Positions 18,833 through 42,265 of a DNA stretch of 46,528 bases are shown piece after piece. Numbering within the stretch: position 1 is the stretch's first letter; every line of letters starts with the position of its first letter. The stretch lies in contig DASYTV010000008.1 of the NCBI GenBank assembly GCA_036001885.1, positions 1 to 46,528 of the forward strand, given 5' to 3'. The notes under the pieces were generated by a model. The model ran no database searches, had not been told where the DNA came from, and saw only the letters and a list, made by a program, of their open reading frames with translations. Both the position numbers and the translations under genes were made by a program. The stretch is from Actinomycetes bacterium (GTDB taxonomy: Bacteria > Actinomycetota > Actinomycetes > JAKEEW01).

Positions 18833-18873
18833 GTGATCGCCTCAGCGGGTTCAACCTGTCCGTGGTTCGGAGC
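18833..18873 (+). repeat. 41-nt repeat, copy 1 (GTGATCGCCTCAGCGGGTTCAACCTGTCCGTGGTTCGGAGC)
   Basis: Identical to 42224-42265 apart from 1 indel and 1 mismatch, and in the same orientation. It starts right where the isochorismatase fragment breaks off. Confidence 0.85.
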
Positions 18874-19245
18874 AATGCCGTTTCGCGATCAACAGCGCCG
18901 ACATCGTGGCGCAAAGCAGCAACAGCCAGATCAGCCACGCGGTGTGAGTGGCCAGTCCCGCGCGGGAAAGGTCGCCCACAAGCAAGCGGTTGGACGGTTG
19001 GTCAAACCCCCTACGCGGCCCGTCTCCTGCAGCGACTGGGTCCAGTACCGTGACACCGCGGGCAAGCGCATAGCGTTCGCGGCTGTTATCGCCGCCGCGA
19101 ACAGGCCGGCCAGACCGGCTACCCGCACGCGGCCGCGCAACAGCGCGACGCCGCCGATGAATGCCGGAGTGATCAGTGCAGCGGCCGCTCCTTACCGGCG
19201 GTGAGTGCGATGTCCATTCCTCGTCGCCACCCACCGGCTGGAAGG

Positions 19246-20214
19246 TCAGGACTGCATCGCACGCTCGACGTCCTCGGCGATCCGCTCGATCGACGGGATG
19301 ACCAGATCCTCCAGCGAGTCGGCGGAGGGAAGGGGGACGTGTGGGGTCGTGATGCGGATGACGGGCCCGTCGAGGTGCCAGAACCCCTCGTCGACGGCGA
19401 TGGCGGCGATCTCCGCTCCCCACCCGAGCAACCGGGGATTCTCCTCGACGGTGAAAAGCCGGCTCGTGCGACTCAGCGATTCGAGCACCGTCGTGACGTC
19501 GAGCGGAACCAGTGACCGGAGGTCTAGCACTTCGCAATCGATGCCGCGCGAGGCGAGCCGCTCCGCTGCTTTGAGAGCGCGGGGCACCATGAGCCCCAGG
19601 GCGACGATCGTGGCATCGGTGCCGGGCCGGCGGATTCGCGCCTTGCCGAGTTCGTCGACGATCGGTCCGTCCGGCACCTCGTCCTTGGTGGCGTAAAGGC
19701 CTTTGTGCTCGAAGAAGAGCACCGGATCGTCGCAGCGGATGGCGGCGGCCATCAAACCGACCACGTCGACCGGTGTCGAGGGTGTCACGACCTTGAGGCC
19801 AGGAACCGCCATCGCCCAGTTCTCGACGGACTGCGAGTGCTGGGCGCCGAATCGCAGGGTCCCGCCGTTGCCGCTCTTCACCACCAGCGGCAGGCTTACT
19901 TGGCCGTTCGTCATGTAGCGGGTTTTCGCCATCTGGTTCGCGACCAGATCCCAGCAGACGGCGAAGAAGTCGGAGAACATGATCTCGCCCACCGGCCGCA
20001 GCCCGGTCATCGCCGCTCCCATGACCGCCCCGAGGATCGCCTGTTCCGCGATGGGTGTATCGATGACCCGTTTCGGGCCGAACCGCTCGAGCAGGCCCAC
20101 GGTCGTCTTGAACACGCCACCCGCCCCCGCCACGTCTTCGCCGACCAGCACGACCCGCTCGTCGCGTTCCATTTCTTGCGCGATGCCATGCGCAACGGCG
20201 TCGCGGTAGGTCAT
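19246..20214 (-). CDS. TPP-dependent 2-oxoacid/acetoin dehydrogenase E1 component, beta subunit
   Basis: 'VIDTPIAEQAILGAVMGAAMTGLRPVGEIMFSDF' and the C-terminal transketolase-C-like domain. The start at 20214 overlaps the alpha-subunit stop (ATGA). Confidence 0.9.
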   Translation of the reverse strand: MTYRDAVAHGIAQEMERDERVVLVGEDVAGAGGVFKTTVGLLERFGPKRVIDTPIAEQAILGAVMGAAMTGLRPVGEIMFSDFFAVCWDLVANQMAKTRYMTNGQVSLPLVVKSGNGGTLRFGAQHSQSVENWAMAVPGLKVVTPSTPVDVVGLMAAAIRCDDPVLFFEHKGLYATKDEVPDGPIVDELGKARIRRPGTDATIVALGLMVPRALKAAERLASRGIDCEVLDLRSLVPLDVTTVLESLSRTSRLFTVEENPRLLGWGAEIAAIAVDEGFWHLDGPVIRITTPHVPLPSADSLEDLVIPSIERIAEDVERAMQS

Positions 20215-21275
20215 GACCGCCACGAGGAGCCTCCGTCCGCCCAAACCTCGGTGAACGCGGACGCGGGGTCGGGCAGCGCTCCGTTCTTCGCGGCGTCGGT
20301 CGCCGCGTCGACCGCCTGCGCCACCTCCGACTCGATCCGGTCCAGTTGCGCCGCCTCGACACCCAGCCGCTCCAGCCGTCCCCGGTAGACCTTGAGCGGG
20401 TCGTATGCCAGCCAGGCCTCCAGCTCGCCCGGGGGTTTGTACTTGCCGGGGTCGGCCCGGGAGTGGCCACCGTGGCGATAGGTGAGCGCCTCGATGAGCA
20501 CCGGCCCGGCGCCCGAGCGGGCGCGCGCCAGCGCCTCCTCGGCTGCGAGGTAGCAGGCGTCGGCGTCGTTGCCGTCGACCTCGACGGGGTCGAGTCCGTA
20601 CGCGGCGGCGCGGTCGGCGGCCGGGCGCCGTACCGCTGTGATGTCGGAAATGGCGGTGTACTCCATGTAGAGGTTGTTCTCGCAGACGAAAACCACCGGA
20701 AGCGCGAAGACGGCGGCGTAATTCAGCGCCTCGTGGAACGCCCCTATATTCGTGGTGCCGTCCCCGAAGAAGCACACCGCGACCTGCCCGCTGCCCCGGT
20801 ACTGCGCAGACCAGGCAGCCCCGTTCGCGATGGTCAGGTGCGCGCCGATGATCGCGTAGGAGCCCATGACCCCGTGCTCCACGCTCGTCAGATGCATCGA
20901 TCCGCCCTTGCCGCCCAGCAGTCCGTTGCTGCGCCCGAGCAATTCCGCGAGTACCGCCTCCATCGGCACGCCGCGCGCCAAGGTGTGCGCGTGGCCTCGA
21001 TAGGTCGCAAACGTGTAGTCGTCGGACCGCATCGCCGTGGCGAATCCGGCGGCGATCGCCTCCATGCCGAGCGACAAATGGGAGGTGCCCTTAACCAGCT
21101 GCTGCATGAAAAGGTCGTAGGCGCGCTTCTCGAACTGCCGCAACTCATGGAGCACGCGGTACATCCGCAGCCGCACGTCGAGCGGAACGTCCGACTGGTC
21201 GTGCGCCGTGGGGTTGTTCGGTGGCATGACGACGTCGTGTTCGCCGTACGGATGCGTCTCCAACGGCAGCGTCAT
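20211..21275 (-). CDS. TPP-dependent 2-oxoacid/acetoin dehydrogenase E1 component, alpha subunit
   Basis: The TPP-binding motif is 'GDGTTNIGAFHEALNYAAVFALPVVFVCENN'. 'YRGH' is also present. The RBS GGAAGGGA precedes the ATG at 21275; the maximal ORF reaches 21332. Confidence 0.9.
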   Translation of the reverse strand: MTLPLETHPYGEHDVVMPPNNPTAHDQSDVPLDVRLRMYRVLHELRQFEKRAYDLFMQQLVKGTSHLSLGMEAIAAGFATAMRSDDYTFATYRGHAHTLARGVPMEAVLAELLGRSNGLLGGKGGSMHLTSVEHGVMGSYAIIGAHLTIANGAAWSAQYRGSGQVAVCFFGDGTTNIGAFHEALNYAAVFALPVVFVCENNLYMEYTAISDITAVRRPAADRAAAYGLDPVEVDGNDADACYLAAEEALARARSGAGPVLIEALTYRHGGHSRADPGKYKPPGELEAWLAYDPLKVYRGRLERLGVEAAQLDRIESEVAQAVDAATDAAKNGALPDPASAFTEVWADGGSSWRS

Positions 21276-21303
21276 GCCGATCCCTTCCTGGTCATTTCCG
21301 GTG

Positions 21304-22665
21304 TTATTTCCCGTCCTCCGAGGGTGGCTCAACCGACGTCCGCCCGCGGGTGTTGATGTGCGACTGGCTATCCCGCTCGAGGGTGAGCGGGCCGGCGGTC
21401 GTGTAGTAGCGGCGCCCGGCCACGAGCAGGTCCTCGGCAGGGAACTTCGTGATCACCTCCGCGCCGTCCGCGGTCACGATCACCTCCTCCTCGATGCGCG
21501 CCGCGCCCCAGCCGTCGGAGGCCGGCCAGTAGGTCTCCAGGGCGAAGACCATGCCCTCCTCGAGCACCTCCGGCGCATCGAAGGAGGTCATCCGGCTGAA
21601 GATCGGCCGCTCCCAGATCGACAGGCCGACGCCGTGCCCGTACTGCAGGGCGAACGCGGCCTCCTCATCGGCGAAGCCGAACTCCTCGGCGCGCGGCCAC
21701 AGCTCGACGATGTCCGCAGTGGTGACGCCGGGCTTCACCATCTCGATGGCCTTGTCCATGTACTCGCGGCAGATCCGATAGGCATCGCGCTGGGCGCGAG
21801 AGGCGCTGCCGACGGCGAAGGTCCGGTAGTAGCACGTCCTGTAGCCCATGAAGCTGTGCAGGATGTCGAAGAACGCCGGGTCCCCTGGGCGGATCAGCCG
21901 GTCGGAGAACACGTGCGGATGGGGTGAGCACCGCTCGCCGGAAATGGCATTGACGCCCTCGACGTGCTCCGATCCCAGGTCGTAGAGCACCTTGCTGACC
22001 AGTCCGACGCACTCGTTCTCGCGGACGCCCGGCCTGAGGAACTCGTACAGCTCTTCGTAGGCTGCGTCGACCATCGAAGCCGCCTGCGTGAGCAACCCGA
22101 TCTCGTCGGCGGTCTTGATGCGGCGAGCCCCCAGGAACACCTGCTGCCCGTCGGCCACGGTGATGCCGAGCTCCTGGAGGGCGAACATCACCGGCGGCTC
22201 GATGATGTCCACCCCCACCGGTTCGTTCTGCAGGCCGTGCTCGGCCAGCACGGCATGTACCTTCGCGGCGACGTCCTGCGCGCGCCCGGCCGAGGGCGAG
22301 ATCGCGCCCCGCAGCGTCGAGATCCCTGCGCGCGCACCGTAGTGCTGGCCGCGCTCGCCCGGGTGAGCCTCGTCGAGCCACGGCGTCTGCAACTGGTGGT
22401 GCCGGGCAGCGGAGCCGAAGTCCCACAGCACCGGGTCGCCGCCGCGCGGCAGCACAGCGAAGCGGATCATTTTGTCCATCGCCCAGGTGCCGATGTGCGT
22501 CGCCGTCATGTAGCGAATGTTGTGGAAGTCGAAGGTCAGCAGCGCGCCAAGATCGGAGCGCTCGAGTTCGGCCTTCAGCCGATCGAGGCGTTCTCGGCGC
22601 AGTCGCGGCATGCTGAGCCGGTCCTCCCAGTCGACGCCGGTGACTCCATATGTGGGCGAACCCAT
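21304..22665 (-). CDS. M24-family (creatinase/prolidase fold) metalloenzyme-like protein
   Basis: The N-terminal creatinase_N-like domain is followed by a pita-bread domain: 'RPGDPAFFDILHSFMGYRTCYYRTF', 'YGHGVGLSIWERP', 'ALETYW', 'RIEEEVIVT'. Four of the five canonical metal ligands are recognisable. The second Asp position reads Cys. Confidence 0.8.
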   Translation of the reverse strand: MGSPTYGVTGVDWEDRLSMPRLRRERLDRLKAELERSDLGALLTFDFHNIRYMTATHIGTWAMDKMIRFAVLPRGGDPVLWDFGSAARHHQLQTPWLDEAHPGERGQHYGARAGISTLRGAISPSAGRAQDVAAKVHAVLAEHGLQNEPVGVDIIEPPVMFALQELGITVADGQQVFLGARRIKTADEIGLLTQAASMVDAAYEELYEFLRPGVRENECVGLVSKVLYDLGSEHVEGVNAISGERCSPHPHVFSDRLIRPGDPAFFDILHSFMGYRTCYYRTFAVGSASRAQRDAYRICREYMDKAIEMVKPGVTTADIVELWPRAEEFGFADEEAAFALQYGHGVGLSIWERPIFSRMTSFDAPEVLEEGMVFALETYWPASDGWGAARIEEEVIVTADGAEVITKFPAEDLLVAGRRYYTTAGPLTLERDSQSHINTRGRTSVEPPSEDGK

Positions 22666-22683
22666 CGGGACCTCCGTGAAAGG

Positions 22684-22703
22684 CGCTGCTCGGCAGAGCA
22701 GCG
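22684..22703 (-). terminator. 8-bp GC hairpin between the VOC and M24 genes (possible attenuator or weak terminator)
   Basis: CGCTGCTC-GGCA-GAGCAGCG forms a perfect stem. On the minus strand it is followed by CCUUUCAC and then the M24 RBS (GGAGG). There is no clear U-tract. Confidence 0.25.
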
Positions 22704-22749
22704 GTGGACGTTCGCCGGGCCCGCTGCCGGGACCGGCCCGGCTCCGGTT

Positions 22750-23301
22750 TCAGGCGAGCCTGGCCTCGATCTCTTCCAGTCGAGCGCGGGTGCGGAGGTA
22801 CTCCTCCGCTGCCGCCTCCCGCTTTTCCTTTTCGTAGTAGGCAATCTCCACCAGCTCCAGCGCAAGGCCGTCCGGGTCGCTGAAATAGCACCAACGCCAG
22901 CCGGCAAGCGGCCCGTCGTCGATGACGTTGACATCCGAATAGAACTGCACGCCCTTGCTTTCCAGCTCCGCCTTCCTTGCCGTAATGTCGTCGACCAGCA
23001 GGCAGACGTGAGCGGCGCCCAGGTAGTTGTTCGGGACCGGCTCGGTGCTCGATTCTGGCCGGTTGGCGTACTCGAGCAGCTCCAGGGTGGAATGCTCGCC
23101 CACCCAGAGGCAGACCTGCCGCAGCTCGGCGCCCGGCACGCCGACGCCCTTTTCGAGCTGGGGCCCGGAGAACCACGGCGTCGGCTCGTTGGCGAACGGC
23201 AGCCCGAGGATGTCGTGGTAGAAGTAGATCGATCGGTCGAGGTCGCGGATCACCAGCCCGGCATGGTGGATCGCTTTCGGCGGCGGCTGCATTGATTGCA
23301 T
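22750..23301 (-). CDS. VOC-family (glyoxalase/bleomycin-resistance/dioxygenase) protein
   Basis: 'IHHAGLVIRDLDRSIYFYHDILGL' and a second 'GAAHVCLLVDDITA..LESKGV' module. It carries a charged coiled C-terminal tail. Confidence 0.8.
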   Translation of the reverse strand: MQSMQPPPKAIHHAGLVIRDLDRSIYFYHDILGLPFANEPTPWFSGPQLEKGVGVPGAELRQVCLWVGEHSTLELLEYANRPESSTEPVPNNYLGAAHVCLLVDDITARKAELESKGVQFYSDVNVIDDGPLAGWRWCYFSDPDGLALELVEIAYYEKEKREAAAEEYLRTRARLEEIEARLA

Positions 23302-23314
23302 CCTTCCTGAGGCG

Positions 23315-24382
23315 CTACGCAGCGGTGGGGCTGATCAGGACCTTGAGCTGATCGCCCTTGGGGTCGACGAGGACCTCGAAGCCCTTCTCCACGACGTCCT
23401 GCAGCGGCACCCGCGCGGTCACGGCCTTGGTGACCGGATAGCGGCCGGTGGCGACCAGTCGGATGACCCGCGGCCAGTCGGTGAGCCCGTAGCACCAGCT
23501 GCCGTAGAGCGTGGCGTCCTTCTCGGCGAGCGTCATGGCGTCGAGCTGCGCCGGCTTGGTGTGCAGCCCGGTCTGCACGATGGCTCCGCCGCGGCGGACG
23601 TGCGTCACGCAGGCGCCGAGCCCGGGGCTGGTCCCCGAGCACTCGACCGCGAGGTCAACCCCGAACCCGTCGGTCAGCTCTGCCAACAGGTCGCCGAATC
23701 CCTTCCCCGTCGGATCGAGCACCGGGCCGACATCCAGCTCACGGGCCAGCGCGGCCCGGTTCGGGTTGGGCTCTGCGATCACGACGGCGCCCGCGCCGAT
23801 CGCGCTTGCGTAGAGAGCGGAAAGCGCGCCGATCGGACCGGCTCCGGTCACCAGCACGATGTCGCCGCCGGAGATGCCCGCTCGCTCCACGCCGTAGGCC
23901 GCCACCGCTGCCGGCTCGATGAGGGCGCCCTCGAGGTCGGACACCTCATCCGGCAGGCGATTCACCTGGTACTCCTTCAGCACGGCGAATCTCGCGAGCC
24001 CGCCGGTCGATGCCGACAGCCCCGTGCAGGCCATGGTCACGCAGAGGTGGCCCTGCCCACGCCGGCAGTAGCGGCAGCGGCCGCAGATGATGAGCGGCAT
24101 GACGGAGACCCGGTCTCCGATGCCGGCATCTCTGACCTCCGCTCCGGTCTCGACCACAGTGGCCGAGAATTCGTGGCCCAACGTCTGGGGCAGGCTGGCG
24201 CCGGTGAGGGGGTGCGGCTTGACGGCGGTGACGATCGGCCCGACGGAGTACTCATGCAGGTCGGTGCCGCAGATGCCGCACCAGTGCACCTCAACCAGCA
24301 AGTCGTCGGGTGCCGACAGCTGGGGGGTGGGCACCTCCTCGACCCGGATATCCTTCTGGCCGTAGAACCGTGCAGCGAGCAC
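23315..24382 (-). CDS. zinc-dependent MDR alcohol dehydrogenase (2,3-butanediol / polyol dehydrogenase-like)
   Basis: 'MLAARFYGQKDIRVEEV..VEVHWCGICGTDLHEY', 'GHEFSATVVETG', structural-Zn 'CGRCRYCRRGQGHLC', and Rossmann 'VLVTGAGPIGAL'. Confidence 0.85.
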   Translation of the reverse strand: MLAARFYGQKDIRVEEVPTPQLSAPDDLLVEVHWCGICGTDLHEYSVGPIVTAVKPHPLTGASLPQTLGHEFSATVVETGAEVRDAGIGDRVSVMPLIICGRCRYCRRGQGHLCVTMACTGLSASTGGLARFAVLKEYQVNRLPDEVSDLEGALIEPAAVAAYGVERAGISGGDIVLVTGAGPIGALSALYASAIGAGAVVIAEPNPNRAALARELDVGPVLDPTGKGFGDLLAELTDGFGVDLAVECSGTSPGLGACVTHVRRGGAIVQTGLHTKPAQLDAMTLAEKDATLYGSWCYGLTDWPRVIRLVATGRYPVTKAVTARVPLQDVVEKGFEVLVDPKGDQLKVLISPTAA

Positions 24383-24391
24383 GTCCTGCTC

Positions 24392-26992: not shown

Positions 26993-26995
26993 CGA

Positions 26996-28114: not shown

Positions 28115-28192
28115 TGAGGTTTCCCTTCTCGCGTCGTCGGGTTGTTGTCGAGGACTTGCACTCGGTCGTGCCGCCCGGTCAGGTGCTTGCGG

Positions 28193-31450: not shown

Positions 31451-31488
31451 GGGCCGACCTCGCATAGCTGTTGTGCAGTGAGGAGCAT

Positions 31489-32250: not shown

Positions 32251-32303
32251 GACAGGTCGTCAGTCCCGTTGTCCGGCGTCTCGTTGATGACGCCCTAGCC
32301 TGT

Positions 32304-33086: not shown

Positions 33087-33250
33087 GAACGTGCGCCTCC
33101 TGGACACCCATGGCTGATCTGCGGTACCGGACACGACGCAAGATCAGGGCCAAACGTTAACCAATACTTGACGCCCTGTCCACGGTAGACCAGGATGCGG
33201 GCGAACCGCACGCGGCGCGTGAGGCCCGAGCCGCCCGTCGTAAAGGAGCC

Positions 33251-34327: not shown

Positions 34328-34336
34328 GCCGGATGC

Positions 34337-35554
34337 TCAGAGCGGTTCCGGGTCTGCCTCGAGCTCGTCGCGCACCCACTCCAATTCTCGCGTGACGTAC
34401 TCGGTGATGTCGCCGGTCTTGAGGTGCGCCGGCAGGACGTCCCAGGTGTAGGTCTCGATCTCGAGCTGGTCGGACAACGGAGTCTCGACATGCACGCGCA
34501 GCGCATCCTCGATCGCGAAGCGCGTCGTGCGGAAGGCCCCTAGATCGTCCAGGAAAACCGGCACGTGAAAATGCGTGCGCCATTCCCGCGATCCGCCCGG
34601 AGCTTGTTTCCACGCATCGATGGCATCGCCCAGATTGAGAAATCGCGTGAGTTCGCCGTCGCGCAGCTCGGTCGTCTGGCTCACATAGATGGTGTCCGTG
34701 AAGCGTTCCAGCTCGTGAACCGTCTCCGGCGTCACCTCCGGGACCCACAGCGCCGACGCCTCCTGCAATTTGAAGATCGGGATGCCGGCAGCCACCAGCA
34801 ACGCCAGTGAAGCGGGAATGTCCTCGAATTCCACGGCCAGATGGCAGATGTCGAATACCACGCCGAGGTGCCGCCGGATCAGGCCGTGCACCTGCGAGAC
34901 CGGCAGCCCGGTCAGCGAAGCCAGCCGGGCGGTGCCCTCGGCCGAATACACGCGTTCCTCGAAATACCGCACGGTTTCCCGGGTGGTTTCGAGGAAGCAG
35001 TGTGGCTCGGGCTCCAGTCCGAGCTTGACCCGCCGCCCGGTGCGCCGCTCCAGCTCGACGAGGTGAGCGACCACGCGGAACAGGTTCTGGGTGAAGGCAG
35101 CGACGTACTCGGGCCCCGAAACCTTCGGTTTGTATGCCAGCGGGGCCGTCTGGATCGCCGGCTCCACCCCGTCAGCGGCGATGTCGGCGAGGACGTCCGC
35201 AACGTCCGTCGTGTAGCCGGTCCGCGAGTCGGTCGACCAGTCCGGTTCGTAGACCTCCTCCATCACACGACGACCCTTGAACGGTCCCTGCGGGAACGCG
35301 TTGACGGTGTAGACGTAGAGGTCGTTTGTCGCCAGGAACTCCTTGAGCCTTGCTCGCTCGACCGGATCGCCGGCGAGGGTGGCAGCCGAGGCGCCGGACA
35401 GGCGCAGGGAGACGCCGAATGGCGCGTCCGGCGAGACGTTCGCCTTCACGGCCGGTGCGTATGTGGTGAGGCTCTCCCACATTTCCGGCCAGGTGTCTCC
35501 GGGATGGACGAGCGTGCTGTAGGTCAGGTGGCCGAGCCCGTCACCTAGCTGCAT
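34337..35554 (-). CDS. xylose-isomerase-like TIM-barrel protein, EboE-like
   Basis: From the ATG at 35554 (RBS GGGAGAAG): 'GHLTYSTLVHPGDTWPEMWESL..VSPDAPFGVSLRLSGASAATL' and 'VYEPDWSTDSRTGYT'. These match my recollection of the EboE family N-terminal pattern (HLTYCTNIHPGExW..PFGIGLRLS..YxPDW). Length is 405 aa. Confidence 0.6.
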   Translation of the reverse strand: MQLGDGLGHLTYSTLVHPGDTWPEMWESLTTYAPAVKANVSPDAPFGVSLRLSGASAATLAGDPVERARLKEFLATNDLYVYTVNAFPQGPFKGRRVMEEVYEPDWSTDSRTGYTTDVADVLADIAADGVEPAIQTAPLAYKPKVSGPEYVAAFTQNLFRVVAHLVELERRTGRRVKLGLEPEPHCFLETTRETVRYFEERVYSAEGTARLASLTGLPVSQVHGLIRRHLGVVFDICHLAVEFEDIPASLALLVAAGIPIFKLQEASALWVPEVTPETVHELERFTDTIYVSQTTELRDGELTRFLNLGDAIDAWKQAPGGSREWRTHFHVPVFLDDLGAFRTTRFAIEDALRVHVETPLSDQLEIETYTWDVLPAHLKTGDITEYVTRELEWVRDELEADPEPL

Positions 35555-35666
35555 GGGACTTCTCCCGCCTCGCCGCCCTCCGCCCGGGCGGCCGGCGTGG
35601 GTGTTCTGTGACAAACGCACACTCAAACACCGGGTCGTCTGCCGGTCAAGGTCCGAGGGACCGGAT

Positions 35667-36737
35667 TCACGACGACAAGGCGGACGTTCCCTCGGCCAGA
35701 ACGCGCACCCCGAGCTCTGCCAGTGCCGGGGCGGCACCACTCATGTCCACCTGCGTGGCGGTGCCGAGTTGCCGGCCCGAAATCGTGCGGAAATGGATGG
35801 ACTCAACGATGACCGCGAGCTTGAAGCAGGCTAGGCCGACGCAGGTGTCCAGATTGGCGAGGTCGCGGCCGCTGCTGCGTGCGTAGCCGTCGATGATCTG
35901 GTCCCGTTCCCAGAACCCGGGGCCGTCGGTGACGCCGATGGCGACCGGCACCTGCCGGCGCAGGTTCTCACCCTGCCTCGACCAGTACACGAGCATCACC
36001 GCGAGGTCGGCGACGGGGTCGCCGAGGGTGGACATCTCCCAATCCACCAGGGCACGGACCTGCGGGGCGTGCTCGGCGAGGATCGCATTGTCGAGCCGGT
36101 AGTCGCCGTGCACGATCGACCAGGGCAAGGAGTCGGGCAGCGCCTCGATGCGTCGGGCGAGCGCGCTGGCGAGCGCGTCGAGTGCCGGGAGGTCGCGCGT
36201 GCGGCTGTGCTGCCACTGCTGTGACCAGCGCACCACCTGACGGCCGAGGTAGCCGTCGGGCCGGCCCAGCTTTTCCAGCCCGGCCGCTTTCGCGTCCACG
36301 GCGTGCAGCGCCACCAGCGTGTCCACTAGTGACCCGCAGATGGCCCAGGCGTCAGCCGGGTCCAGGCTCGCCGCCGCCGCGGCGTCGCCCACGACGCGGC
36401 CCTCGACATAGTCCATGAGCAGGAACGTCACGCCGGTGACGCTCTCGTCTGTGCAGAGCAGCACCGGCCGGGGGACCGGGAACCCTACCGAGGCGAGACC
36501 GGAAAGCACTCGATACTCGCGGCTCATGTCATGGGCGCTGGGCATGACATGGCCGAGGGGCGGCCGACGGAGCACCCACTTCTCGTCCCCCTGTTGGAGG
36601 ACATAGCTGAGATTGGAGTGACCTCCGGTCAGCAGCGCCGCGGACAGCGGGCGGTCGCTGTCCAGCACGCCGGCCGACGCCAGGTGGCCGCGGAGCCGCT
36701 CGAGGTCCAGGCCGGGTACGCCGGTTGGGATTGTCAC
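35667..36737 (-). CDS. phosphotransferase-family protein (APH/choline-kinase fold)
   Basis: 'LTGGHSNLSYVL..WVLRRPP', catalytic 'IVHGDYRLDNAIL', and 'LVDWEMSTLGDPVADL'. The GTG start at 36737 overlaps the synthetase stop (GTGA). Confidence 0.8.
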   Translation of the reverse strand: MTIPTGVPGLDLERLRGHLASAGVLDSDRPLSAALLTGGHSNLSYVLQQGDEKWVLRRPPLGHVMPSAHDMSREYRVLSGLASVGFPVPRPVLLCTDESVTGVTFLLMDYVEGRVVGDAAAAASLDPADAWAICGSLVDTLVALHAVDAKAAGLEKLGRPDGYLGRQVVRWSQQWQHSRTRDLPALDALASALARRIEALPDSLPWSIVHGDYRLDNAILAEHAPQVRALVDWEMSTLGDPVADLAVMLVYWSRQGENLRRQVPVAIGVTDGPGFWERDQIIDGYARSSGRDLANLDTCVGLACFKLAVIVESIHFRTISGRQLGTATQVDMSGAAPALAELGVRVLAEGTSALSS

Positions 36738-38317
36738 CGGGGCCGCCTTGCGGCCTCGCGTAGGACGTTCTTCTGGATCTTGCCGGTCGAGGTCTTGGGG
36801 AGATCTCCGAACACGATCTCCTTCGGTGCCTTGAAGCGGGCCAGCCGGGACTTGACGTGCGCCACGAGGTCGTCCGGCTGCACTGCGGCGCCGGGCGCCA
36901 GCGTGACGAACGCGACCGGAACCTCGCCCCACTTATCGTCAGGGCGCCCCACGACGGCGGCATCGACGACGCCGGGCACGCTCATCAGGACGTTCTCGAC
37001 CTCGACCGACGAGACGTTCTCCCCACCCGTGATGATGATGTCCTTCGCCCGGTCGTGGATCTGCATGTAACCGTCGGGATGCCGGACGGCGAGGTCGCCG
37101 GTGAGCAGCCAGCCGTCTTCGATCGCTGCGGCGGTCGCCGCTTCGTCGTCGAGGTAGCCCGCCATTACGGTGTTGGACCGCACGGCCAGCTCGCCAACGG
37201 ACCTGCCGTCCGACGGCACGTCGGCCAGCTTGGCGTCGACGACCCGCACGTCACGCACCGTCAGGGTCCGCACCCCCTGACGGGCCATCGCGGCAGCGAG
37301 CGCTTCGTCGTCCATCTCGCTCCACGAGTCCTGCGGCTCGCACACCAGGGACGGCCCGTAGGTCTCGGTGAGTCCGTACAGGTGGGTGAGCTCGATGCCC
37401 ATCGCCCGCACGCGGGAGATCGTCGACGGGGAAGGCGGGGCGCCGCCGGTCGCGACCCGCACAGGGTGGGAAAGCACGGCGGTGCGCGCGGCGGGATCGT
37501 TGACGATCGCGTTGAGCACCACCGGCGCCGCGCAGAAGTGCGTCACGGCCTGCTCGGCCAGGGCTTTCAGCACCGCCTGCGGCTCCGGGCGCAGCAGGCC
37601 GACGTGCCGCGCGCCGACTGCCGTGACGGCCCAGGTGTAGCACCATCCGTTGCAGTGGAACATGGGCAGCGTCCAGAGGTAGACCGAGTGTGCGGTGAGG
37701 CCGAAGCTGATCGCTGAGCCCAGGGCATTCAGGTAGGCGCCGCGGTGGGTGTAGACGACACCCTTCGGCTTGCCGGTCGTCCCGCTCGTGTAGTTCACCG
37801 CGATGGGCGCCTGCTCAGCGTGGGGATCGGCCAGGCCGGGCCCGGCCGGAGCTGCGTTCAGCCAACGCTCATACGCGGTGGCCCCGCGCAGGGTCAGGTC
37901 GCGGTCGGTGATCTCCACCACCAGCTGCAGCGCGGGCTGGTCGGCCAGCGCTGAGCGGACCGCGTTGGCGAGCAGACGGTGAACGACGAGGACGCGCGCC
38001 TTGGAGTGGCGAAGCATGTAGGCGTACTCGTCCGGGCCGAGCCGCGTGTTCAAGGCGACCAGCACAGCACCCGCACCCGGCACGCCGTAGTGGGCGGCGA
38101 GCAGTTGCAAGGAGTTCGGCGCGAGCACGGCCACCCGGTCGCCGCTGCCGACACCCGAGCCGCGCAGCGCGTCCGCCAACCGCGCCGCGTGCGCATGTAG
38201 TTCGCGGTAGGTGACGGAGTTGCCGCTCTCCTCGACCAGGCCCACCCGGTCTGGGAAGACGTCCGCGGTGCGGCGCAGGAAATTCAGGGGAGTCAGCGGA
38301 ACGTCGTCGGCGCGCAT
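36734..38317 (-). CDS. AMP-dependent acyl-CoA synthetase/ligase
   Basis: The start is the ATG at 38317 (MRADDVPLTPLNFL..). AMP-binding motif 'NYTSGTTGKPKGVVYTHRG', 'YGLTET' and 'GWLLTGD'. Length is 527 aa; the rest of the 831-aa ORF is a spurious upstream extension. Confidence 0.9.
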   Translation of the reverse strand: MRADDVPLTPLNFLRRTADVFPDRVGLVEESGNSVTYRELHAHAARLADALRGSGVGSGDRVAVLAPNSLQLLAAHYGVPGAGAVLVALNTRLGPDEYAYMLRHSKARVLVVHRLLANAVRSALADQPALQLVVEITDRDLTLRGATAYERWLNAAPAGPGLADPHAEQAPIAVNYTSGTTGKPKGVVYTHRGAYLNALGSAISFGLTAHSVYLWTLPMFHCNGWCYTWAVTAVGARHVGLLRPEPQAVLKALAEQAVTHFCAAPVVLNAIVNDPAARTAVLSHPVRVATGGAPPSPSTISRVRAMGIELTHLYGLTETYGPSLVCEPQDSWSEMDDEALAAAMARQGVRTLTVRDVRVVDAKLADVPSDGRSVGELAVRSNTVMAGYLDDEAATAAAIEDGWLLTGDLAVRHPDGYMQIHDRAKDIIITGGENVSSVEVENVLMSVPGVVDAAVVGRPDDKWGEVPVAFVTLAPGAAVQPDDLVAHVKSRLARFKAPKEIVFGDLPKTSTGKIQKNVLREAARRPR

Positions 38318-38319
38318 CC

Positions 38320-39489
38320 TCACGGTCCTCCCGGCGGCGTGCCCGCACGAGCGCGTGCGACCACGCGCCGCGCGATCGACTGGCGATGCACCTCTGACGG
38401 CCCGTCGTACACCCGGAACGGGCGCACCTCGCGGTAGAGCTGGGACACCACCGCGTCGTCCGACACACCTAGCGCACCGCAGAGCTGGACGCAGCGGTCG
38501 ACGACGCGGAACACGGCCTCGGCGACGAAGACTTTCGCGATCGAGGTCTCGTGCCGCCCGGGTGCGCCGGAGTCGAGGACCTCGGCAGCATCGCGGATCA
38601 GCGCCCGGGACGAGGCGATGTCGATCTCGTTGTCGGCGATCATCTGCTGGGCCATCCCGAGGTCGGCCAGCACAGCTCCCCACATGGGCCGGTCGGCGGC
38701 GTAGCGAACAGCCGTCTCGTGTGCCCGTCTCGCGGCGCCGAGCCAGCGCATGCAATGCGTCAGTCGGGCCGGCGCCAAGCGCAGCTGGGCATAGGCGAAG
38801 CCCTCCCCGACGGCACCGAGGACGGCGTCGTCGCCGACCCGGCAGCCGTCGAAGAAGACCTCGCAATGCCCACCGGCGAAGACCGTGTCGAGCGCGCCGA
38901 TCCGCCGGCCGACGCGCAGGCCCGGGTTGTCGGCGGCGACGATGAACATCGTGGCGCCCGGCTCCGTGCGGGCCATCACGATAAGGAAGGCGGCACCGTC
39001 CGCGCCGCTGATGAACCACTTGTGACCGTCGATCACCCAGCCTCCGCTGACCCGCTCGGCACCGGTGGCCAGCTGCGACGGGTCGGACCCGGCACCCGGC
39101 GACTGTTCGGTCATCGCGAAGGCCGAGCGCACCTCGCCGCGGGCGAGCGGCTCGAGATAGCGCTCTCGCTGCCCCGGGCTCGCGATGCGTTGAAGCAGCA
39201 CGACGTTGCCCTCGTCCGGCGCGGCGCACAGCGTGGCCGCCGGTCCCAGCAGGCTGCGCCCGGCCTCCTCGAGCGCGACGGCCTGCTCGCGGTGGCTCAG
39301 CCCGAGGCCGCCGAGCGCCTCCGGCACGGTCGGCGCGAAGACCCCGGCCCGCCGGGCCGCCGCACGCAGCTGCTCGACCAGCGCCTCATCAGGGCCGTGC
39401 GGCGTGGTGCCGGGCGTCGGCTCGGCCGGCACGACCTCCTCGTCGACAAAGGCCCGGAACCGTTTCCTTAGGTCCTCGAGACCCGTCAT
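38320..39489 (-). CDS. acyl-CoA dehydrogenase family protein
   Basis: The start is the ATG at 39489 (MTGLEDLRKRF..). 'SAFAMTEQSPGAGSDPSQLAT', 'GHKWFISGA', and a C-terminal helical domain with 'YEGPSEVHRQSIAR'-type ending ('VYDGPSEVHRQSIARRV'). Confidence 0.9.
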   Translation of the reverse strand: MTGLEDLRKRFRAFVDEEVVPAEPTPGTTPHGPDEALVEQLRAAARRAGVFAPTVPEALGGLGLSHREQAVALEEAGRSLLGPAATLCAAPDEGNVVLLQRIASPGQRERYLEPLARGEVRSAFAMTEQSPGAGSDPSQLATGAERVSGGWVIDGHKWFISGADGAAFLIVMARTEPGATMFIVAADNPGLRVGRRIGALDTVFAGGHCEVFFDGCRVGDDAVLGAVGEGFAYAQLRLAPARLTHCMRWLGAARRAHETAVRYAADRPMWGAVLADLGMAQQMIADNEIDIASSRALIRDAAEVLDSGAPGRHETSIAKVFVAEAVFRVVDRCVQLCGALGVSDDAVVSQLYREVRPFRVYDGPSEVHRQSIARRVVARARAGTPPGGP

Positions 39490-39494
39490 CCGCG

Positions 39495-40409
39495 CTACCG
39501 CCCCAGGTGCTCGGCGAACCAGCTGCCCGCCTCGCGCGCTGCGGTCTCCAGCTTGTCGCGGTCGCTGTAGAGCGTCATGTGCGTGGTGTGCGGAAGTACG
39601 TGCAGTCGCTTCTTGGTCGTCGGCAGCGTGTTGTAGGCGCCGATCTCCAGGTCCCAGAGCGTCAGGTCGTCGCCCTCCGCGACGATCATGAGGGTCGGGG
39701 TGTCGTAGATGCGGCGTGCGAACGGGATGATGTCGTAGTTCAGCAACAGGTCCACGGACTCGACCGTGCTGCTGTTCTGGTAAAGCGGTGCCTCCTTTTC
39801 CTTCAGCGCCGCGAAGGTGTGGAAGGTCTCGGGGAAGGGCCACGTCGAGAGATCCTTGGCCGGCTCGGCAGTGGCGTGCGGAATGTGCAGGCGTTCGCCG
39901 TGCTTTCCGAACCGCAGCGCACGATCTTCGAGAATGCGCGACCACAGCGCCCGGTAGCCCAGGGTCCCGTGGACCCGCCGCATGTTCTCGTATCCGTCGA
40001 CCACTGGAATCTGGCTGACGATGACCTGGATCCTCGGGTCGATGGCCGCCAACACGACCACGTGGCCGCCCGAGTAGGAGATGCCCCAGGCGCCGAGACG
40101 GTCGGGGTCCACGTCGTGGCGGGTTTCGAGGAAGCTCAGCGCGTTCTGGTAGTCGCGGATCTGCATCCAGGGATCAAGGTGCTGGCGCGGCTCGCCGTCG
40201 GATAGTCCCAGGTTGCGGTAGTCGATGATCAGGGCCGCGATCCCTCGCGATGCGAATTCCTCCGCGTAATAGGGCATCACCAGCTCGCGCACATAGCACC
40301 AGCCCCCCGCAAGGACGACGGCCGCGTAGGGGCCCGGGCCTTCCGGTGTGTACAACCATCCCCGCACGGTCGTTCCCTCCGACCGGAAATCGATGTCCTC
40401 GCGTGCCAC
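39495..40409 (-). CDS. alpha/beta hydrolase (Ser nucleophile)
   Basis: The nucleophile elbow is 'AWGISYSGGHVV'. The GTG at 40409 is preceded by GGAGG. The track's TTG start at 40463 lies inside the operator palindrome. Confidence 0.75.
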   Translation of the reverse strand: MAREDIDFRSEGTTVRGWLYTPEGPGPYAAVVLAGGWCYVRELVMPYYAEEFASRGIAALIIDYRNLGLSDGEPRQHLDPWMQIRDYQNALSFLETRHDVDPDRLGAWGISYSGGHVVVLAAIDPRIQVIVSQIPVVDGYENMRRVHGTLGYRALWSRILEDRALRFGKHGERLHIPHATAEPAKDLSTWPFPETFHTFAALKEKEAPLYQNSSTVESVDLLLNYDIIPFARRIYDTPTLMIVAEGDDLTLWDLEIGAYNTLPTTKKRLHVLPHTTHMTLYSDRDKLETAAREAGSWFAEHLGR

Positions 40410-40457
40410 GGGGCCTCCTCGAGAGACTGTTCGACGCTCCAGGAACCGTAGGCAGCT

Positions 40458-40473
40458 TTGCAATCGGTTGCAA
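40458..40473. promoter_or_regulatory. LacI/GalR-type operator palindrome
   Basis: In TTGCAATCGGTTGCAA, the inner 14-mer TGCAATCGGTTGCA fits TGnAAnCGnTTnCA at every constrained position. It sits between the hydrolase operon start and the LacI remnant. Confidence 0.55.
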
Positions 40474-40504
40474 TAGTCTGCCGTCGCTGCTATCCCACTG
40501 CTAG

Positions 40505-40954
40505 ATGAAAGCTCGTCGGATGCCTCCTACGATGCGCGAACTGGCCGCGGATCTCGGGTTGGACGTGGCCCACGTCCCCCTGCGCTCGATCCCGCCAAGG
40601 CTCACCTGGTAGCGGCGCAAGGTGGAATTGCTCTTCGCGCGCTCCCGCGTCACCGCCGCATTCGCTCACAACGACGACCTGGCTCTCGGCGTACGCCAGT
40701 TTCCGAGGGAACGCGGTCTGGACTGCCCGGGCGACGTGGGAGTTTCCGGCTACAACGACACCTTTCTGGGCAGCCACATCACTCCAGCGCTGACCACCGT
40801 CCGCTGGCCGGTCGAAGAGGTCGGCCCGTGTGTCGCCGAGCTCGCTTTGTCGGCCGTCGCAGGTCAGCCGAATTCGGGGCCGGAATTGGTGTCCGTCGGT
40901 GCCCGAGCTCGTCGCGCGCGTCGACCGATTCACGGCAGACTTCCGGGGCAATAA
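40505..40954 (+). pseudogene. LacI-family regulator with internal deletion/frameshift (HTH piece + C-terminal piece only)
   Basis: 40505: 'MKARRMPPTMRELAADLGLDVAHVP..' is a degenerate LacI HTH ending at a stop after 36 codons. 40622-40954: 'TAAFAHNDDLALGVRQFPRERGLDCPGDVGVSGYNDTFLGSHITPALTTVRWPVEEVG' is the last third of the LacI ligand domain. About 150 central residues are missing. Confidence 0.7.
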
Positions 40955-40963
40955 GGTGGCGCG

Positions 40964-41797
40964 ATGAATGAGCAAGAACTCACCCACGAGGTGACGGCAC
41001 GAATGGCAACGACCCCCGATGACCGCATTCGGTTCCTGATGGAGGCGCTGGTCCGGCACCTGCATTCTTTCGCATGCGAAGTGCGACTGACCGAAGCCGA
41101 GTGGCTGCAAGGGATTCGATTCCTTACCGAAACCGGGCAGATGTGCGACGCGACGCGACAAGAGTTCATTCTCCTGTCGGACACGCTGGGCTTGTCATCC
41201 CTAGTCGACATCATCAACCACGGCAATCAGAATCCAGAGGTGACCGCCACGACCGTTCTGGGCCCGTTCTATGTGCCGGATTCACCCCGGCGGGCATTCG
41301 GCGCGTCCATGGTCGAATACGAGGACGGAGGTCGGCCGGCGATTGTTGGCGGCACCGTCCGATCCGCCAGTGGCGTGCCGATCCCGGGCGCCGAGATCGA
41401 CGTCTGGCAGAACGCGGCGACCGGCTTCTACGCGGTTCAGGTACCTGACGAGCAGCCGGCCACGAACCTCCGCGGGATATACAGCACCGACCACAGGGGA
41501 AGGTATGAGATTCGGACGGTCCGCCCGGTGCCCTATCCGATCCCGGCCGACGGGCCGGTCGGCCGTAGCCTCGCGGTCACCGGGCGGCACCCATGGCGCG
41601 CGGCACACATTCACGCGATCGTCAGTGCCCCAGGTCACGTGACCCTGACAACGCACATCTTCGACAGCGCAAGCGACTACCTGGACAGCGACGCCGTTTT
41701 CGGCGTGAGCTCCGCGTTGGTGCGAGACTTCGTCCCCGACCCGACGGGGACTCTCGTCTGTGAGCACGACTTCGTGCTCGACGTGGCTGGAGGATAG
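40964..41797 (+). CDS. intradiol ring-cleavage dioxygenase (hydroxyquinol/catechol 1,2-dioxygenase type)
   Basis: N-terminal helical domain 'RIRFLMEALVRHLHSFACEVRLTEAEWLQGIRFL'. 'VLGPFY', 'DVWQNAATGFY', 'YEIRTVRPVPYPIPADGP' and 'HPWRAAHIHAIV' carry the Tyr/Tyr/His/His iron ligands. Confidence 0.9.
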   Translation: MNEQELTHEVTARMATTPDDRIRFLMEALVRHLHSFACEVRLTEAEWLQGIRFLTETGQMCDATRQEFILLSDTLGLSSLVDIINHGNQNPEVTATTVLGPFYVPDSPRRAFGASMVEYEDGGRPAIVGGTVRSASGVPIPGAEIDVWQNAATGFYAVQVPDEQPATNLRGIYSTDHRGRYEIRTVRPVPYPIPADGPVGRSLAVTGRHPWRAAHIHAIVSAPGHVTLTTHIFDSASDYLDSDAVFGVSSALVRDFVPDPTGTLVCEHDFVLDVAGG

Positions 41798-41819
41798 GGG
41801 TGTCTCGCGGCTGGTGAAC

Positions 41820-42222
41820 CGCAAGGTTCAGGGTTGGCTTCAGCCGCGCGGCACGCTGTCAGCGCACTCGCGAGATTCGGAGGCAAGCCATGAACCGCAT
41901 GACGCGTTGGACGATAGCGGGGCTCGCCACGGCGATCTCCGTCGGAGCAGGGGCCGGCATCGCCGCGGCACGTCGCGCGGACGCGACCAGTCGACGCGAC
42001 CAGCACCTTAAGCCGTTCCGCCGGGCGCTGGTGGAGACCGGTCTTATAGTCCCGATGATCACCACGAACCTGTTCTCCAGCCAGTCCTCCGCGACGGCGG
42101 GTTCACCAATAACGACCGTGACGTACGCCGGTTCGCGATCCGCAAGGTGTGCCGACAACCTGGATGTGGCCGCCTAGCTCGGGGGCTAACACGTTCGTCG
42201 CCTGGGGCTGGCGTGAGGGAGG
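41820..42222 (+). pseudogene. xylA: xylose isomerase remnant (about the first 140 codons, multiple frameshifts, one in-frame stop)
   Basis: Across three frames: 'HLKPFRRALVETGLIVPMITTNLFS', 'QPVLRDGGFTNNDRDVRRFAIRKV', 'DNLDVAA*LG', 'GANTFVAWGWREG'. These match actinobacterial XylA ('[69 protein letters not shown]'). The similarity stops exactly at the 42224 repeat. Confidence 0.75.
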
Positions 42223-42223
42223 C

Positions 42224-42265
42224 GTGATCGCCTCAGCGGGGTTCAACCTGTCCGTGCTTCGGAGC
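42224..42265 (+). repeat. 41/42-nt repeat, copy 2 (GTGATCGCCTCAGCGGGGTTCAACCTGTCCGTGCTTCGGAGC)
   Basis: A direct-orientation copy of 18833-18873. It begins at the break point of the xylA remnant. Confidence 0.85.

What the first reader, a model, noticed from the sequence alone, without database searches (positions are those of the whole stretch)
18833..42265. A ~23.4-kb catabolic block bracketed by a 41-nt direct repeat, each copy sitting at the break point of a truncated gene
GTGATCGCCTCAGCGGG(G)TTCAACCTGTCCGTG(G/C)TTCGGAGC occurs at 18833-18873 and at 42224-42265, in the same orientation, with one indel and one mismatch. Copy 1 starts ~17 nt beyond the point where an isochorismatase-family gene loses its N-terminal part. 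Copy 2 starts at the codon where similarity to xylose isomerase ends (after ..FVAWGWREG). Both inner and outer flanks are littered with dead genes (IS5-like remnant, membrane-protein debris, dead LacI, dead xylA). The 23 kb in between consists entirely of accessory-type catabolic and transport genes. This looks like the scar of a mobile or recombination-delivered module (IS or MITE end, or a recombination site). No integrase or intact transposase remains, and the two interrupted genes are not halves of one target. A simple single insertion therefore does not explain it.
Basis: seen in the sequence. Interest (0 to 1): 0.7.

Follow-up and report, generated by a model that had tools for sequence, protein, structure and literature searches.

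The report
Gene block inserted with 42-bp target duplication
A 23-kb block of catabolic and transport genes in an uncultured soil actinobacterium is present in some strains and missing, exactly between the two repeat copies, in others, and it looks like an insertion that duplicated 42 bp of ordinary spacer DNA rather than the work of a mobile element.

Summary
The repeat is real: 18833-18873 and 42224-42265, direct orientation, one G-run indel and one mismatch. It is the only significant repeat in the window (self-BLAST E 2.5e-11).

Two independent metagenome contigs (L004, L126) carry the empty site. There the left flank of copy 1, one 42-nt copy and the right flank of copy 2 are contiguous, between an intact isochorismatase gene and the MDMPI-family gene. 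So the 23.35 kb is gained or lost exactly at the repeat.

Both inner ends are broken genes cut within 3 nt of the repeat: an internal GT87 glycosyltransferase fragment and xylose isomerase residues ~69-142. No integrase, transposase, tRNA or terminal inverted repeats are present. The repeat has no significant fold. It was not found in 185,579 reference genomes or in plasmids; viral contigs gave only chance half-matches.

Best reading: "insertion with long target duplication" (Nobusato 2000; Furuta 2010), probably recombinase-independent capture of a random-ended DNA fragment.

One correction: the isochorismatase break lies 84 nt from copy 1 and comes from a separate 479-nt deletion.

Other strains have lost copy 1 through further deletions. 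This is a new member of a known but mechanistically unexplained kind, of moderate interest.

The parts
18833..18873 (+). Repeat copy 1 (R1): GTGATCGCCTCAGCGGGTTCAACCTGTCCGTGGTTCGGAGC. It has one G fewer than the population consensus. The C at 18832 is also shared with copy 2.
   Evidence: The same junction is seen in L005 (99.94% identical contig) and L134.
42224..42265 (+). Repeat copy 2 (R2), 42 nt. The window carries a G->C change at 42257, shared with L001 and L116. The consensus of the other strains equals the single copy at the empty site.
   Evidence: 10 distinct contigs, each from a different sample, carry xylA-fragment | R2 | MDMPI.
18874..42223 (.). The inserted block, about 23.35 kb. 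Gene content:
- 2-oxoacid dehydrogenase E1 alpha and beta
- M24 peptidase-family protein
- glyoxalase/VOC protein
- three Zn-dependent alcohol dehydrogenases
- sugar-type ABC transporter (binding protein, permease, ATPase-permease fusion)
- HTH-cupin regulator
- SDR and a PRISE-like reductase
- TIM-barrel protein
- APH-family kinase
- acyl-CoA synthetase and acyl-CoA dehydrogenase
- alpha/beta hydrolase
- LacI-type fragment
- intradiol dioxygenase
   Evidence: Pfam; gene calls of L005, L111 and L131. The block is absent as a unit in L004 and L126.
18874..19245 (-). Left inner end: a frameshifted internal fragment of a GT87-family membrane glycosyltransferase, truncated at both ends. Its similarity to the family stops 2 nt from the right edge of R1.
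   Evidence: (PF09594, profile positions 107-212 of 237, E 5.6e-8) and the translations.
41800..42223 (+). Right inner end: a decayed 5' fragment of xylose isomerase. Residues about 69-142 are recognisable, with two frameshifts. It ends at ...WREG(G), directly at the left edge of R2.
   Evidence: (PDB xylose isomerases, E 1e-22).
18750..18832 (.). Native spacer DNA to the left of R1. In empty-site strains it is contiguous with R and the MDMPI promoter side.
18464..18749 (-). C-terminal remnant of the isochorismatase-family gene. The window lacks 479 nt (the N-terminal part of the gene plus 147 nt upstream) that are present in L004 and L126.
18297..18441 (-). IS5-family transposase remnant outside the block. 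It is a hybrid of two 89%-identical remnants that flank a 2.86-kb LuxR/GDSL segment in L004.
42266..43059 (+). Right outer flank: a 116-nt spacer with the conserved promoter region, then the intact MDMPI_N-family gene (42382-43059).

Best explanation
The two copies are a target-site duplication of unique, ordinary intergenic DNA. They are not part of a mobile element.

Proposed history:
- In the ancestral arrangement, still present in some strains, an isochorismatase-family gene and an MDMPI-family gene are transcribed divergently. They are separated by about 390 nt that contain one 42-nt copy of the sequence.
- A DNA fragment of about 23.35 kb was inserted there. Its ends lay at arbitrary points inside a GT87 glycosyltransferase gene and a xylose isomerase gene. 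The 42-43 bp of target DNA ended up on both sides. This is the pattern called 'insertion with long target duplication'.
- I infer that the event did not use a dedicated recombinase. It would have been illegitimate capture of a fragment at a staggered break or stalled fork, with the overhang filled in (end-joining or replicative repair).
- Afterwards the locus kept decaying. There was a 479-nt deletion in the isochorismatase gene, loss of a neighbouring 2.86-kb segment by recombination between IS5 remnants, and, in other strains, deletions that removed copy 1 altogether.
- The two direct copies now also allow precise loss of the block by recombination between them.

Shown: the repeat, the exact presence/absence polymorphism, the broken genes at both inner edges, and the absence of mobility genes.
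Inferred: that the original event was an insertion, and the repair-type mechanism.
For: 1. Empty-site alleles. L004 and L126 come from different samples and assemblers. Both have left flank of R1 + one R + right flank of R2, with both neighbouring genes intact.
2. Both inner junctions are unrelated gene fragments cut within 3 nt of the repeat edges. That is expected for a random-ended fragment, not for an element with defined ends.
3. No integrase, transposase, tRNA or Rfam family was found in the window.
4. R appears to be unique. There is no other copy in the window, 0 matches in 185,579 species genomes, and only this locus in JGI metagenome contigs. Homologous genes in sister lineages lack R and the surrounding 305 nt.
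5. The ancestral R1 and R2 were essentially identical. The consensus R2 equals the empty-site R, and R1 differs by one G.
6. The intact isochorismatase gene is seen only with the empty site (2 of 2). The 479-nt deletion is seen only with R1 plus the block (3 of 3). So the sampled empty alleles do not derive from the sampled occupied haplotype.
7. The block's dioxygenase has no homolog above 72% identity outside its own cluster. The flanking genes have many homologs at 92-97%.
8. Precedents. Furuta et al. 2010 (PMC2853133) define this class: direct repeats over 30 bp, unique in the genome, one copy at the empty site, no mobility genes. They include 46-bp cases and one in the actinobacterium Clavibacter. 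Hoff et al. 2018 (PMC5869714) saw NHEJ repair in Streptomyces capture 30 bp to 18.8 kb of DNA at a break.
Against: - No known end-joining reaction is documented to produce a 42-bp duplication, so the mechanism is an inference.
- The block's base composition and GC3 cannot be distinguished from the flanks, so a foreign origin is not shown by composition.
- The right flanks of the empty alleles differ by only 0-2 nt per 190-200 nt from some occupied alleles, and block diversity (96.8-99.9%) is as large as flank diversity. The polymorphism is therefore old or reshuffled by recombination, and some empty alleles could be secondary R1 x R2 deletions.
- The number of R copies in the whole genome is unknown, because only the window and short related contigs were available.
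- The 23.35-kb insert exceeds the 20-kb operational limit used by Furuta et al.
Confidence: 0.6

Rival explanations
1. R is the identity segment (attL/attR) of a decayed integrative element. The block entered as a circle by site-specific recombination between an attP and this attB. The integrase was encoded on the element and later lost, or it acts in trans from elsewhere in the genome.
For: - A direct repeat of about 42 bp flanks an accessory block, and there is one copy at the empty site. That geometry and length are typical of tyrosine-integrase islands and actinomycete integrative elements (my own knowledge).
- Empty and occupied junctions co-occur in one sample, ERZ27267944 (L116 and L126).
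Against: - There is no integrase, excisionase, relaxase or replication gene, and almost no non-coding room for a remnant.
- R is not in a tRNA, tmRNA or other known RNA gene.
- The attP arms would have to be broken GT87 and xylA genes abutting the core within 3 nt.
- R has no dyad symmetry or significant fold.
- No other R-bordered locus was found, and there were no meaningful matches in IMG/VR.
Confidence: 0.13
2. The occupied arrangement is the older state in this population. The empty alleles are secondary, produced by homologous recombination between R1 and R2. On this view the repeat matters only as a deletion substrate, and its origin is left open.
For: - The right flank of L126 is identical, and that of L004 differs by 1-2 nt, compared with occupied alleles L111 and L115, while the window differs from L004 by 5 nt.
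- The block is present in strains as divergent as 97% (L121).
- The same locus shows a proven deletion between direct repeats. The window's IS5 remnant is a chimera of the two copies that flank 2.86 kb in L004.
Against: - This reading does not explain how two identical 42-mers came to abut two unrelated broken genes 23 kb apart. An insertion with duplication is still needed first.
- Both empty alleles carry the intact isochorismatase gene, whereas all three R1-bearing contigs carry the 479-nt deletion.
- 42 bp is a short substrate for RecA-dependent recombination (my own knowledge).
Confidence: 0.15
3. The duplication was originally much longer. It could have arisen from Campbell-type homologous integration of a circle that shared a long stretch of the isochorismatase-MDMPI region, or from a kb-scale target duplication. 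Two later deletions from the inside then trimmed it, and the 42 nt are just the leftover overlap.
For: - The locus is riddled with deletions: 479 nt, 923 nt (L121), 2.86 kb, and three different truncation points of the GT87 fragment (18875, 19032, 19207).
- Both inner junctions look like deletion junctions.
- Lim et al. 2012 (PMC3457768) discuss tandem duplication plus recombination as an alternative route to such patterns.
Against: - It needs two independent deletions, each ending inside the duplicated segment and leaving a 42-nt overlap.
- All 10 R2-bearing contigs from diverged strains share exactly the same xylA | R2 boundary, and no longer version was seen.
Confidence: 0.09
4. R is the end of an insertion sequence or MITE, or a REP-like dispersed repeat. 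The truncated genes would then result from IS-mediated adjacent deletions.
For: - An IS5-family remnant lies 390 nt to the left of R1.
- Genes abutting an element end are typical of IS-mediated adjacent deletion (my own knowledge).
Against: - The two copies are direct, and R has no terminal inverted repeat, no short flanking duplication and no hairpin.
- R is not contiguous with the IS5 remnant. It is absent from the longer IS5-like copy seen in L125 and L132 and from plasmid records.
- No further copies exist in any fetched locus or collection.
Confidence: 0.03

Closest known systems
Insertion with long target duplication (Nobusato et al. 2000, Gene 259:99; Furuta, Abe & Kobayashi 2010, NAR, PMC2853133)
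   Same: - Direct repeats longer than 30 bp flank the inserted DNA.
- The repeat is unique sequence, and a related strain has one copy at the empty site.
- The insert carries no integrase or transposase.
- The repeat length is close to the 46-bp Haemophilus influenzae cases.
- One described case is in an actinobacterium (Clavibacter).
- The mechanism is unknown there too.
   Different: - The described cases carry restriction-modification genes and were screened with a limit of under 20 kb. Here the cargo is a 23.35-kb catabolic and ABC-transport block with no RM genes.
- Both ends of this insert are demonstrably broken genes, which points to a random-ended fragment.
- The evidence here comes from a natural population sampled by metagenomics, not from two finished genomes.
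NHEJ-associated capture of DNA at double-strand breaks in Streptomyces (Hoff et al. 2018, Sci Rep, PMC5869714)
   Same: - An actinobacterial chromosome.
- Recombinase-independent insertion of arbitrary DNA fragments up to 18.8 kb at a repair site.
- The authors propose it as a route for horizontal acquisition.
   Different: - Those events followed I-SceI cuts and show fill-in or microhomology of a few nucleotides, not a 42-bp duplication.
- Whether this organism has Ku/LigD is unknown.
Tyrosine-integrase genomic islands and actinomycete integrative and conjugative elements (attL/attR direct repeats)
   Same: - Direct repeats of tens of bp border a strain-variable accessory block.
- The empty site has one copy.
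- The geometry allows precise excision.
   Different: - There is no integrase or excisionase.
- The site is not in a tRNA or a conserved gene end.
- The inner edges are broken genes rather than attP arms.
- No second R-bordered island is known.

Membership tests
Insertion with long target duplication (criteria of Furuta et al. 2010) | Direct repeats longer than 30 bp flank the insert | tested here: met
   41 and 42 nt (43 with the shared C), 95% identical in the window. The population consensus of R2 differs from R1 by one G.
Insertion with long target duplication (criteria of Furuta et al. 2010) | A related genome has the empty site: one copy of the repeat, contiguous with both outer flanks | tested here: met
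   L004 (Ga0184625_10009571) and L126 (ERZ27267944 k141_553566).
Insertion with long target duplication (criteria of Furuta et al. 2010) | No mobility-related genes in or next to the insert | tested here: met
   Pfam on all block ORFs and on the main ORFs of the flanks found no integrase, resolvase or transposase. Caveat: a 145-nt IS5-family pseudogene remnant lies 390 nt outside R1.
Insertion with long target duplication (criteria of Furuta et al. 2010) | The repeat sequence is unique in the genome, not a dispersed repeat | tested here: inconclusive
   No other copy was found in the 46.5-kb window, in any of the fetched loci, in 185,579 species genomes or in JGI metagenome contigs outside this locus. 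The complete genome of this organism was not available.
Insertion with long target duplication (criteria of Furuta et al. 2010) | Operational screen criteria: insert under 20 kb and containing R and M genes | tested here: not met
   The insert is about 23.35 kb and no RM genes were found. These were filters of that survey, not properties of the rearrangement. Lim et al. 2012 note that the pattern also occurs for 'other DNAs'.
Site-specific integrative element (genomic island, ICE/AICE, prophage) | Encodes a tyrosine or serine integrase, usually next to one att site | tested here: not met
   No integrase-family Pfam domain in any ORF of the block or in the flank ORFs scanned.
Site-specific integrative element (genomic island, ICE/AICE, prophage) | attB lies in a tRNA or tmRNA gene or in the end of a conserved gene | tested here: not met
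   ARAGORN found 0 genes and Rfam 0 hits in the window. At the empty site R lies in a lineage-specific divergent spacer.
Site-specific integrative element (genomic island, ICE/AICE, prophage) | A circular excised form (attP junction) exists | tested here: inconclusive
   No contig with xylA-fragment | R | GT87-fragment was among the 3 metagenome matches. Raw reads could not be searched.
Insertion sequence, composite transposon or MITE | Terminal inverted repeats, a short (2-14 bp) target duplication, and a transposase or multiple genomic copies | tested here: not met
   The copies are direct. No inverted repeat lies at the block ends, no transposase was found, and no extra copies exist.
REP-like or other dispersed intergenic repeat | Many copies per genome and a stable hairpin | tested here: not met
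   The fold z-score is -1.1. Only this locus was found in every collection searched. Copy number in the complete genome was not testable.

The most novel reading that the evidence does not exclude
R could be the recognition site of an unrecognised, trans-acting recombination system in Trebonia-like actinobacteria. Such a system would insert and excise integrase-less gene cassettes at short unique spacers. The broken genes at the cassette ends would then be relics of how the cassette was first packaged. The coexistence of empty and occupied alleles in one sample would reflect ongoing excision and integration, not old polymorphism.
Probability: 0.06. Interest if true: 0.75.

Novelty: new member of a known kind. 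Interest (0 to 1): 0.38.

Why it matters
"Insertion with long target duplication" has been described mainly for restriction-modification genes, in a few mostly naturally competent bacteria, and its mechanism is still unexplained.

This case adds several things:
- The same signature borders a 23-kb catabolic and transport block in an uncultured soil actinobacterium.
- Both states, and further decay products, are captured in natural populations.
- The inserted DNA has random ends inside genes.

That last point argues for repair-type capture of DNA rather than a selfish element. It supports the idea that end-joining or replication repair helps actinobacteria acquire accessory genes without integrases.

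On the practical side, the locus offers a defined pair of junctions. These could be followed by PCR or long reads to measure how often such blocks are gained and lost.

Tried and rejected
- IS2404-type or other IS terminal repeat: BLAST of the repeat and of the 340-nt spacer against 72,556 plasmids gave only chance hits.
- Widespread element: an exact 22-nt core scan of 185,579 species genomes gave 0 hits.
- Phage or AICE att site: two IMG/VR scans matched only half of the repeat, inside unrelated coding sequence.
- tRNA or structured RNA: ARAGORN and Rfam were negative, and the fold was not significant.
- Cross-species synteny to decide whether insertion or deletion came first:
  - The closest cultured relative found, Trebonia kvetii (90% identical isochorismatase), shares only the gene itself.
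  - MDMPI and isochorismatase homologs at 92-94% identity sit in unrelated contexts. Homology stops at the gene and promoter edges.
  - So synteny was uninformative.
- Compositional foreignness of the block: tetranucleotide and GC3 values are not distinguishable from the flanks.
- Assembly chimera at the repeat: rejected. R1 and R2 junctions recur in independent assemblies. The isochorismatase deletion is perfectly linked to the occupied state (3 of 3 versus 0 of 2).
- Pfam did not recognise the short IS5 fragment. tblastn against plasmids did.

Full report
**1. The observation**

The window has GTGATCGCCTCAGCGGGTTCAACCTGTCCGTGGTTCGGAGC at 18833-18873. At 42224-42265 it has the same sequence with one extra G in the G-run and one G->C change, in the same orientation. 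A self-BLAST of the window finds this pair as its only significant repeat (E 2.5e-11). Shuffled sequence gives no match. The window is about 67% G+C and contains no tRNA and no Rfam family.

**2. What lies around the copies**

Pfam annotation shows that the 23.35 kb between the copies is densely packed with accessory genes:
- 2-oxoacid dehydrogenase E1 alpha and beta
- an M24-family protein and a glyoxalase-fold protein
- three Zn-dependent alcohol dehydrogenases
- a sugar-type ABC transporter
- an HTH-cupin regulator
- an SDR and a PRISE-like reductase
- an APH-family kinase
- an acyl-CoA synthetase and an acyl-CoA dehydrogenase
- an alpha/beta hydrolase
- an intradiol dioxygenase

No integrase, resolvase or transposase domain occurs in the block or in the flank ORFs scanned.

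The inner edge next to copy 1 (18874-19245, minus strand) is a frameshifted internal fragment of a GT87 membrane glycosyltransferase (profile positions 107-212 of 237, E 5.6e-8). Its similarity ends 2 nt from the repeat. The inner edge next to copy 2 is a decayed 5' part of xylose isomerase. After frameshift correction it matches solved xylose isomerases over residues 69-142 at E 1e-22 and stops at ...WREG, immediately before the repeat. A LacI-type C-terminal fragment lies at about 40626-40967.

**3. The key result: empty sites**

A scan of JGI metagenome contigs for the central 23-24 nt of the repeat found three contigs, all from this locus. Two of them (L002, L003) reproduce xylA-fragment | R | MDMPI.

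The third, L004, has window 18747-18832, then one 42-nt copy, then window 42266-42423, with the whole block absent. A look-up with the window's PfkB protein recovered a second empty-site contig, L126, from a different project and assembler.

In both empty alleles the isochorismatase-family gene is intact (205 aa). It is transcribed divergently from the MDMPI-family gene across about 390 nt that contain R once.

The occupied junctions are also independently confirmed. The isochorismatase-remnant | R1 | GT87-fragment junction is in L005 (99.94% identical over 15.6 kb) and L134. The xylA-fragment | R2 | MDMPI junction is in 10 distinct contigs, each from a different sample. The consensus R2 of these strains is identical to the empty-site copy. 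R1 differs from it only by one G. The G->C change in the window's R2 is shared only with L001 and L116.

**4.

The isochorismatase gene is not broken at copy 1. Relative to L004 and L126, the window lacks 479 nt (the N-terminal part of the gene plus 147 nt upstream), with 3-nt microhomology at 18747-18749. That point is 84 nt to the left of copy 1. The 83 nt in between are native spacer. All three R1-bearing contigs carry this deletion and both empty alleles lack it.

**5. Is R a mobile-element end, an att site or a dispersed repeat?**

- The 22-nt core is absent from one genome of each of 185,579 species.
- The repeat and the spacer around it have no meaningful match in 72,556 plasmids.
- IMG/VR matches cover only half of the repeat and lie inside unrelated genes.
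- R has no inverted repeats and no significant fold (z = -1.1).
- Close homologs of the two flanking genes in sister lineages (92-94% identical proteins) sit in unrelated contexts. Their DNA homology stops at the gene or promoter edge, so R and about 305 nt around it are specific to this lineage.
- The nearest cultured relative found is Trebonia kvetii (isochorismatase 90% identical). It shares only that gene.

R is therefore best described as unique spacer DNA.

**6. Reconstruction**

The outer flanks plus one R form an undamaged spacer between two intact genes. The inner flanks are two unrelated genes, each cut at the repeat edge.

One event explains all of this. A fragment of about 23.35 kb with arbitrary ends was inserted into the spacer, and 42-43 bp of target were duplicated. 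Any scenario that starts from the occupied state still needs such an event to create the two copies.

Two further observations support insertion as the original direction:
- The intact isochorismatase gene is linked only to the empty alleles.
- The block's dioxygenase has no homolog above 72% identity outside its own cluster, whereas the flanking genes have many at 92-97%.

Composition does not discriminate.

The polymorphism is not recent. Block and flank diversity are similar (about 97-99.9%), and the right flanks of the empty alleles are nearly or fully identical to those of some occupied alleles. So recombination within the population, or occasional precise R1 x R2 deletion, must also be at work.

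**7. A decaying, rearranging neighbourhood**

- The window's IS5-family remnant (18297-18441) is a chimera of two 89%-identical remnants. In L004 these flank a 2.86-kb segment with a GAF-LuxR regulator and a GDSL lipase. The window therefore lost that segment by recombination between direct repeats.
- In L121 a 923-nt deletion (window 18284-19206) removed the IS5 remnant, the isochorismatase remnant, R1 and most of the GT87 fragment.
- In L125 and L132, window 18307-19031 is replaced by 623 nt. These carry a longer IS5-like pseudogene and the 3' half of a tRNA-Met-like sequence.
- The GT87 remnant thus ends at three different points (18875, 19032, 19207) in different strains, and the window retains the most. 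This is consistent with the R1-bearing form being ancestral to the other block-bearing forms.

**8. Comparison with what is known**

Furuta, Abe and Kobayashi (2010, PMC2853133), following Nobusato et al. (2000), define 'insertion with long target duplication'. Its features are direct repeats over 30 bp that are unique in the genome, one copy at the empty site of a related strain, and no mobility genes. Their examples include 46-bp duplications in Haemophilus influenzae and a case in Clavibacter. No mechanism is established. Lim et al. (2012, PMC3457768) note the pattern for 'other DNAs' and discuss a tandem-duplication alternative. Hoff et al. (2018, PMC5869714) showed that end-joining repair in Streptomyces can capture 30 bp to 18.8 kb of DNA at a break.

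The present case meets the defining structural features of the first class. It differs in cargo (no restriction-modification genes), in size (23.35 kb) and in showing broken genes at both insert ends. It fails the defining features of integrase-driven islands, of IS, MITE and composite transposons, and of REP-like repeats.

**9. Verdict**

- The IS, MITE or att-site interpretation and the claim about the isochorismatase break are not supported.
- The most likely explanation (about 0.6) is a recombinase-independent insertion with a 42-43-bp target duplication, followed by local decay. The repeats now serve as a substrate for precise loss.
- The main uncertainties are the mechanism that makes so long a duplication, the genome-wide copy number of R, and whether today's empty alleles are ancestral or secondary.
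- This is a new member of a known but poorly understood kind, and its interest is moderate.

Noticed in passing
window 18297-18441; L004 1074-1215 and 4078-4220: The window's IS5-family transposase remnant is a chimera of two 89%-identical remnants. In L004 (and in L123 and L130) these flank a 2.86-kb segment that encodes a GAF-LuxR regulator and a GDSL lipase. The window and L126 lost that segment by recombination between the remnants. L124 and L127 show different mosaic patterns.
   Followed up: yes
window 18747-18749 (L004 287-765): A 479-nt deletion with 3-nt microhomology removes the N-terminal part of the isochorismatase-family gene and 147 nt upstream. It is seen only in contigs that also carry R1 and the block.
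   Followed up: yes
L121 (ERZ25039591 contig_102865); L125 and L132 (ERZ27267898, ERZ27267921); equivalent to window 18284-19206 and 18307-19031: Two further versions of the block's left junction lack R1.
- One is a 923-nt deletion.
- The other is a 623-nt replacement carrying a longer IS5-like pseudogene and the 3' half of a tRNA-Met-like sequence (CTCATAGCCCAGAGGTCGCGGGTTCATCCCGCCCCCGCTAC), which ARAGORN does not call.
The origin of the tRNA half is unexplained. It could be the relic of an att site of some other element.
   Followed up: partly
window 43078-43104; L002 3476-3876; L111 5726-5911: There is a small hypervariable spot just downstream of the MDMPI gene. L002 has a 401-nt, lower-GC insertion that encodes a resolvase or homeodomain-type HTH peptide (Pfam HTH_23 and HTH_7, E about 1e-5). 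L111 has about 186 nt where the window has 25.
   Followed up: partly
window 43091-44540 (minus strand): The pyridine nucleotide-disulphide oxidoreductase gene is frameshifted near codon 80 in the window and in L001 (called as 337 + 142 aa). It is intact (484 aa) in L111. This is either a pseudogene in this strain or a shared sequencing error.
   Followed up: partly
L093-L110 (sister lineages): The MDMPI-family gene with about 85-125 nt of its promoter, and the isochorismatase gene, each recur at 92-94% protein identity in completely different gene neighbourhoods. DNA homology ends sharply at the gene edges. That suggests very fluid, gene-sized mosaicism in the accessory genome of these Trebonia-like actinobacteria.
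   Followed up: partly
window 40964-41797: The intradiol (hydroxyquinol or catechol 1,2-) dioxygenase of the block is phylogenetically isolated. Its best non-self hit among 5.8 billion proteins is 72% identical.
   Followed up: no
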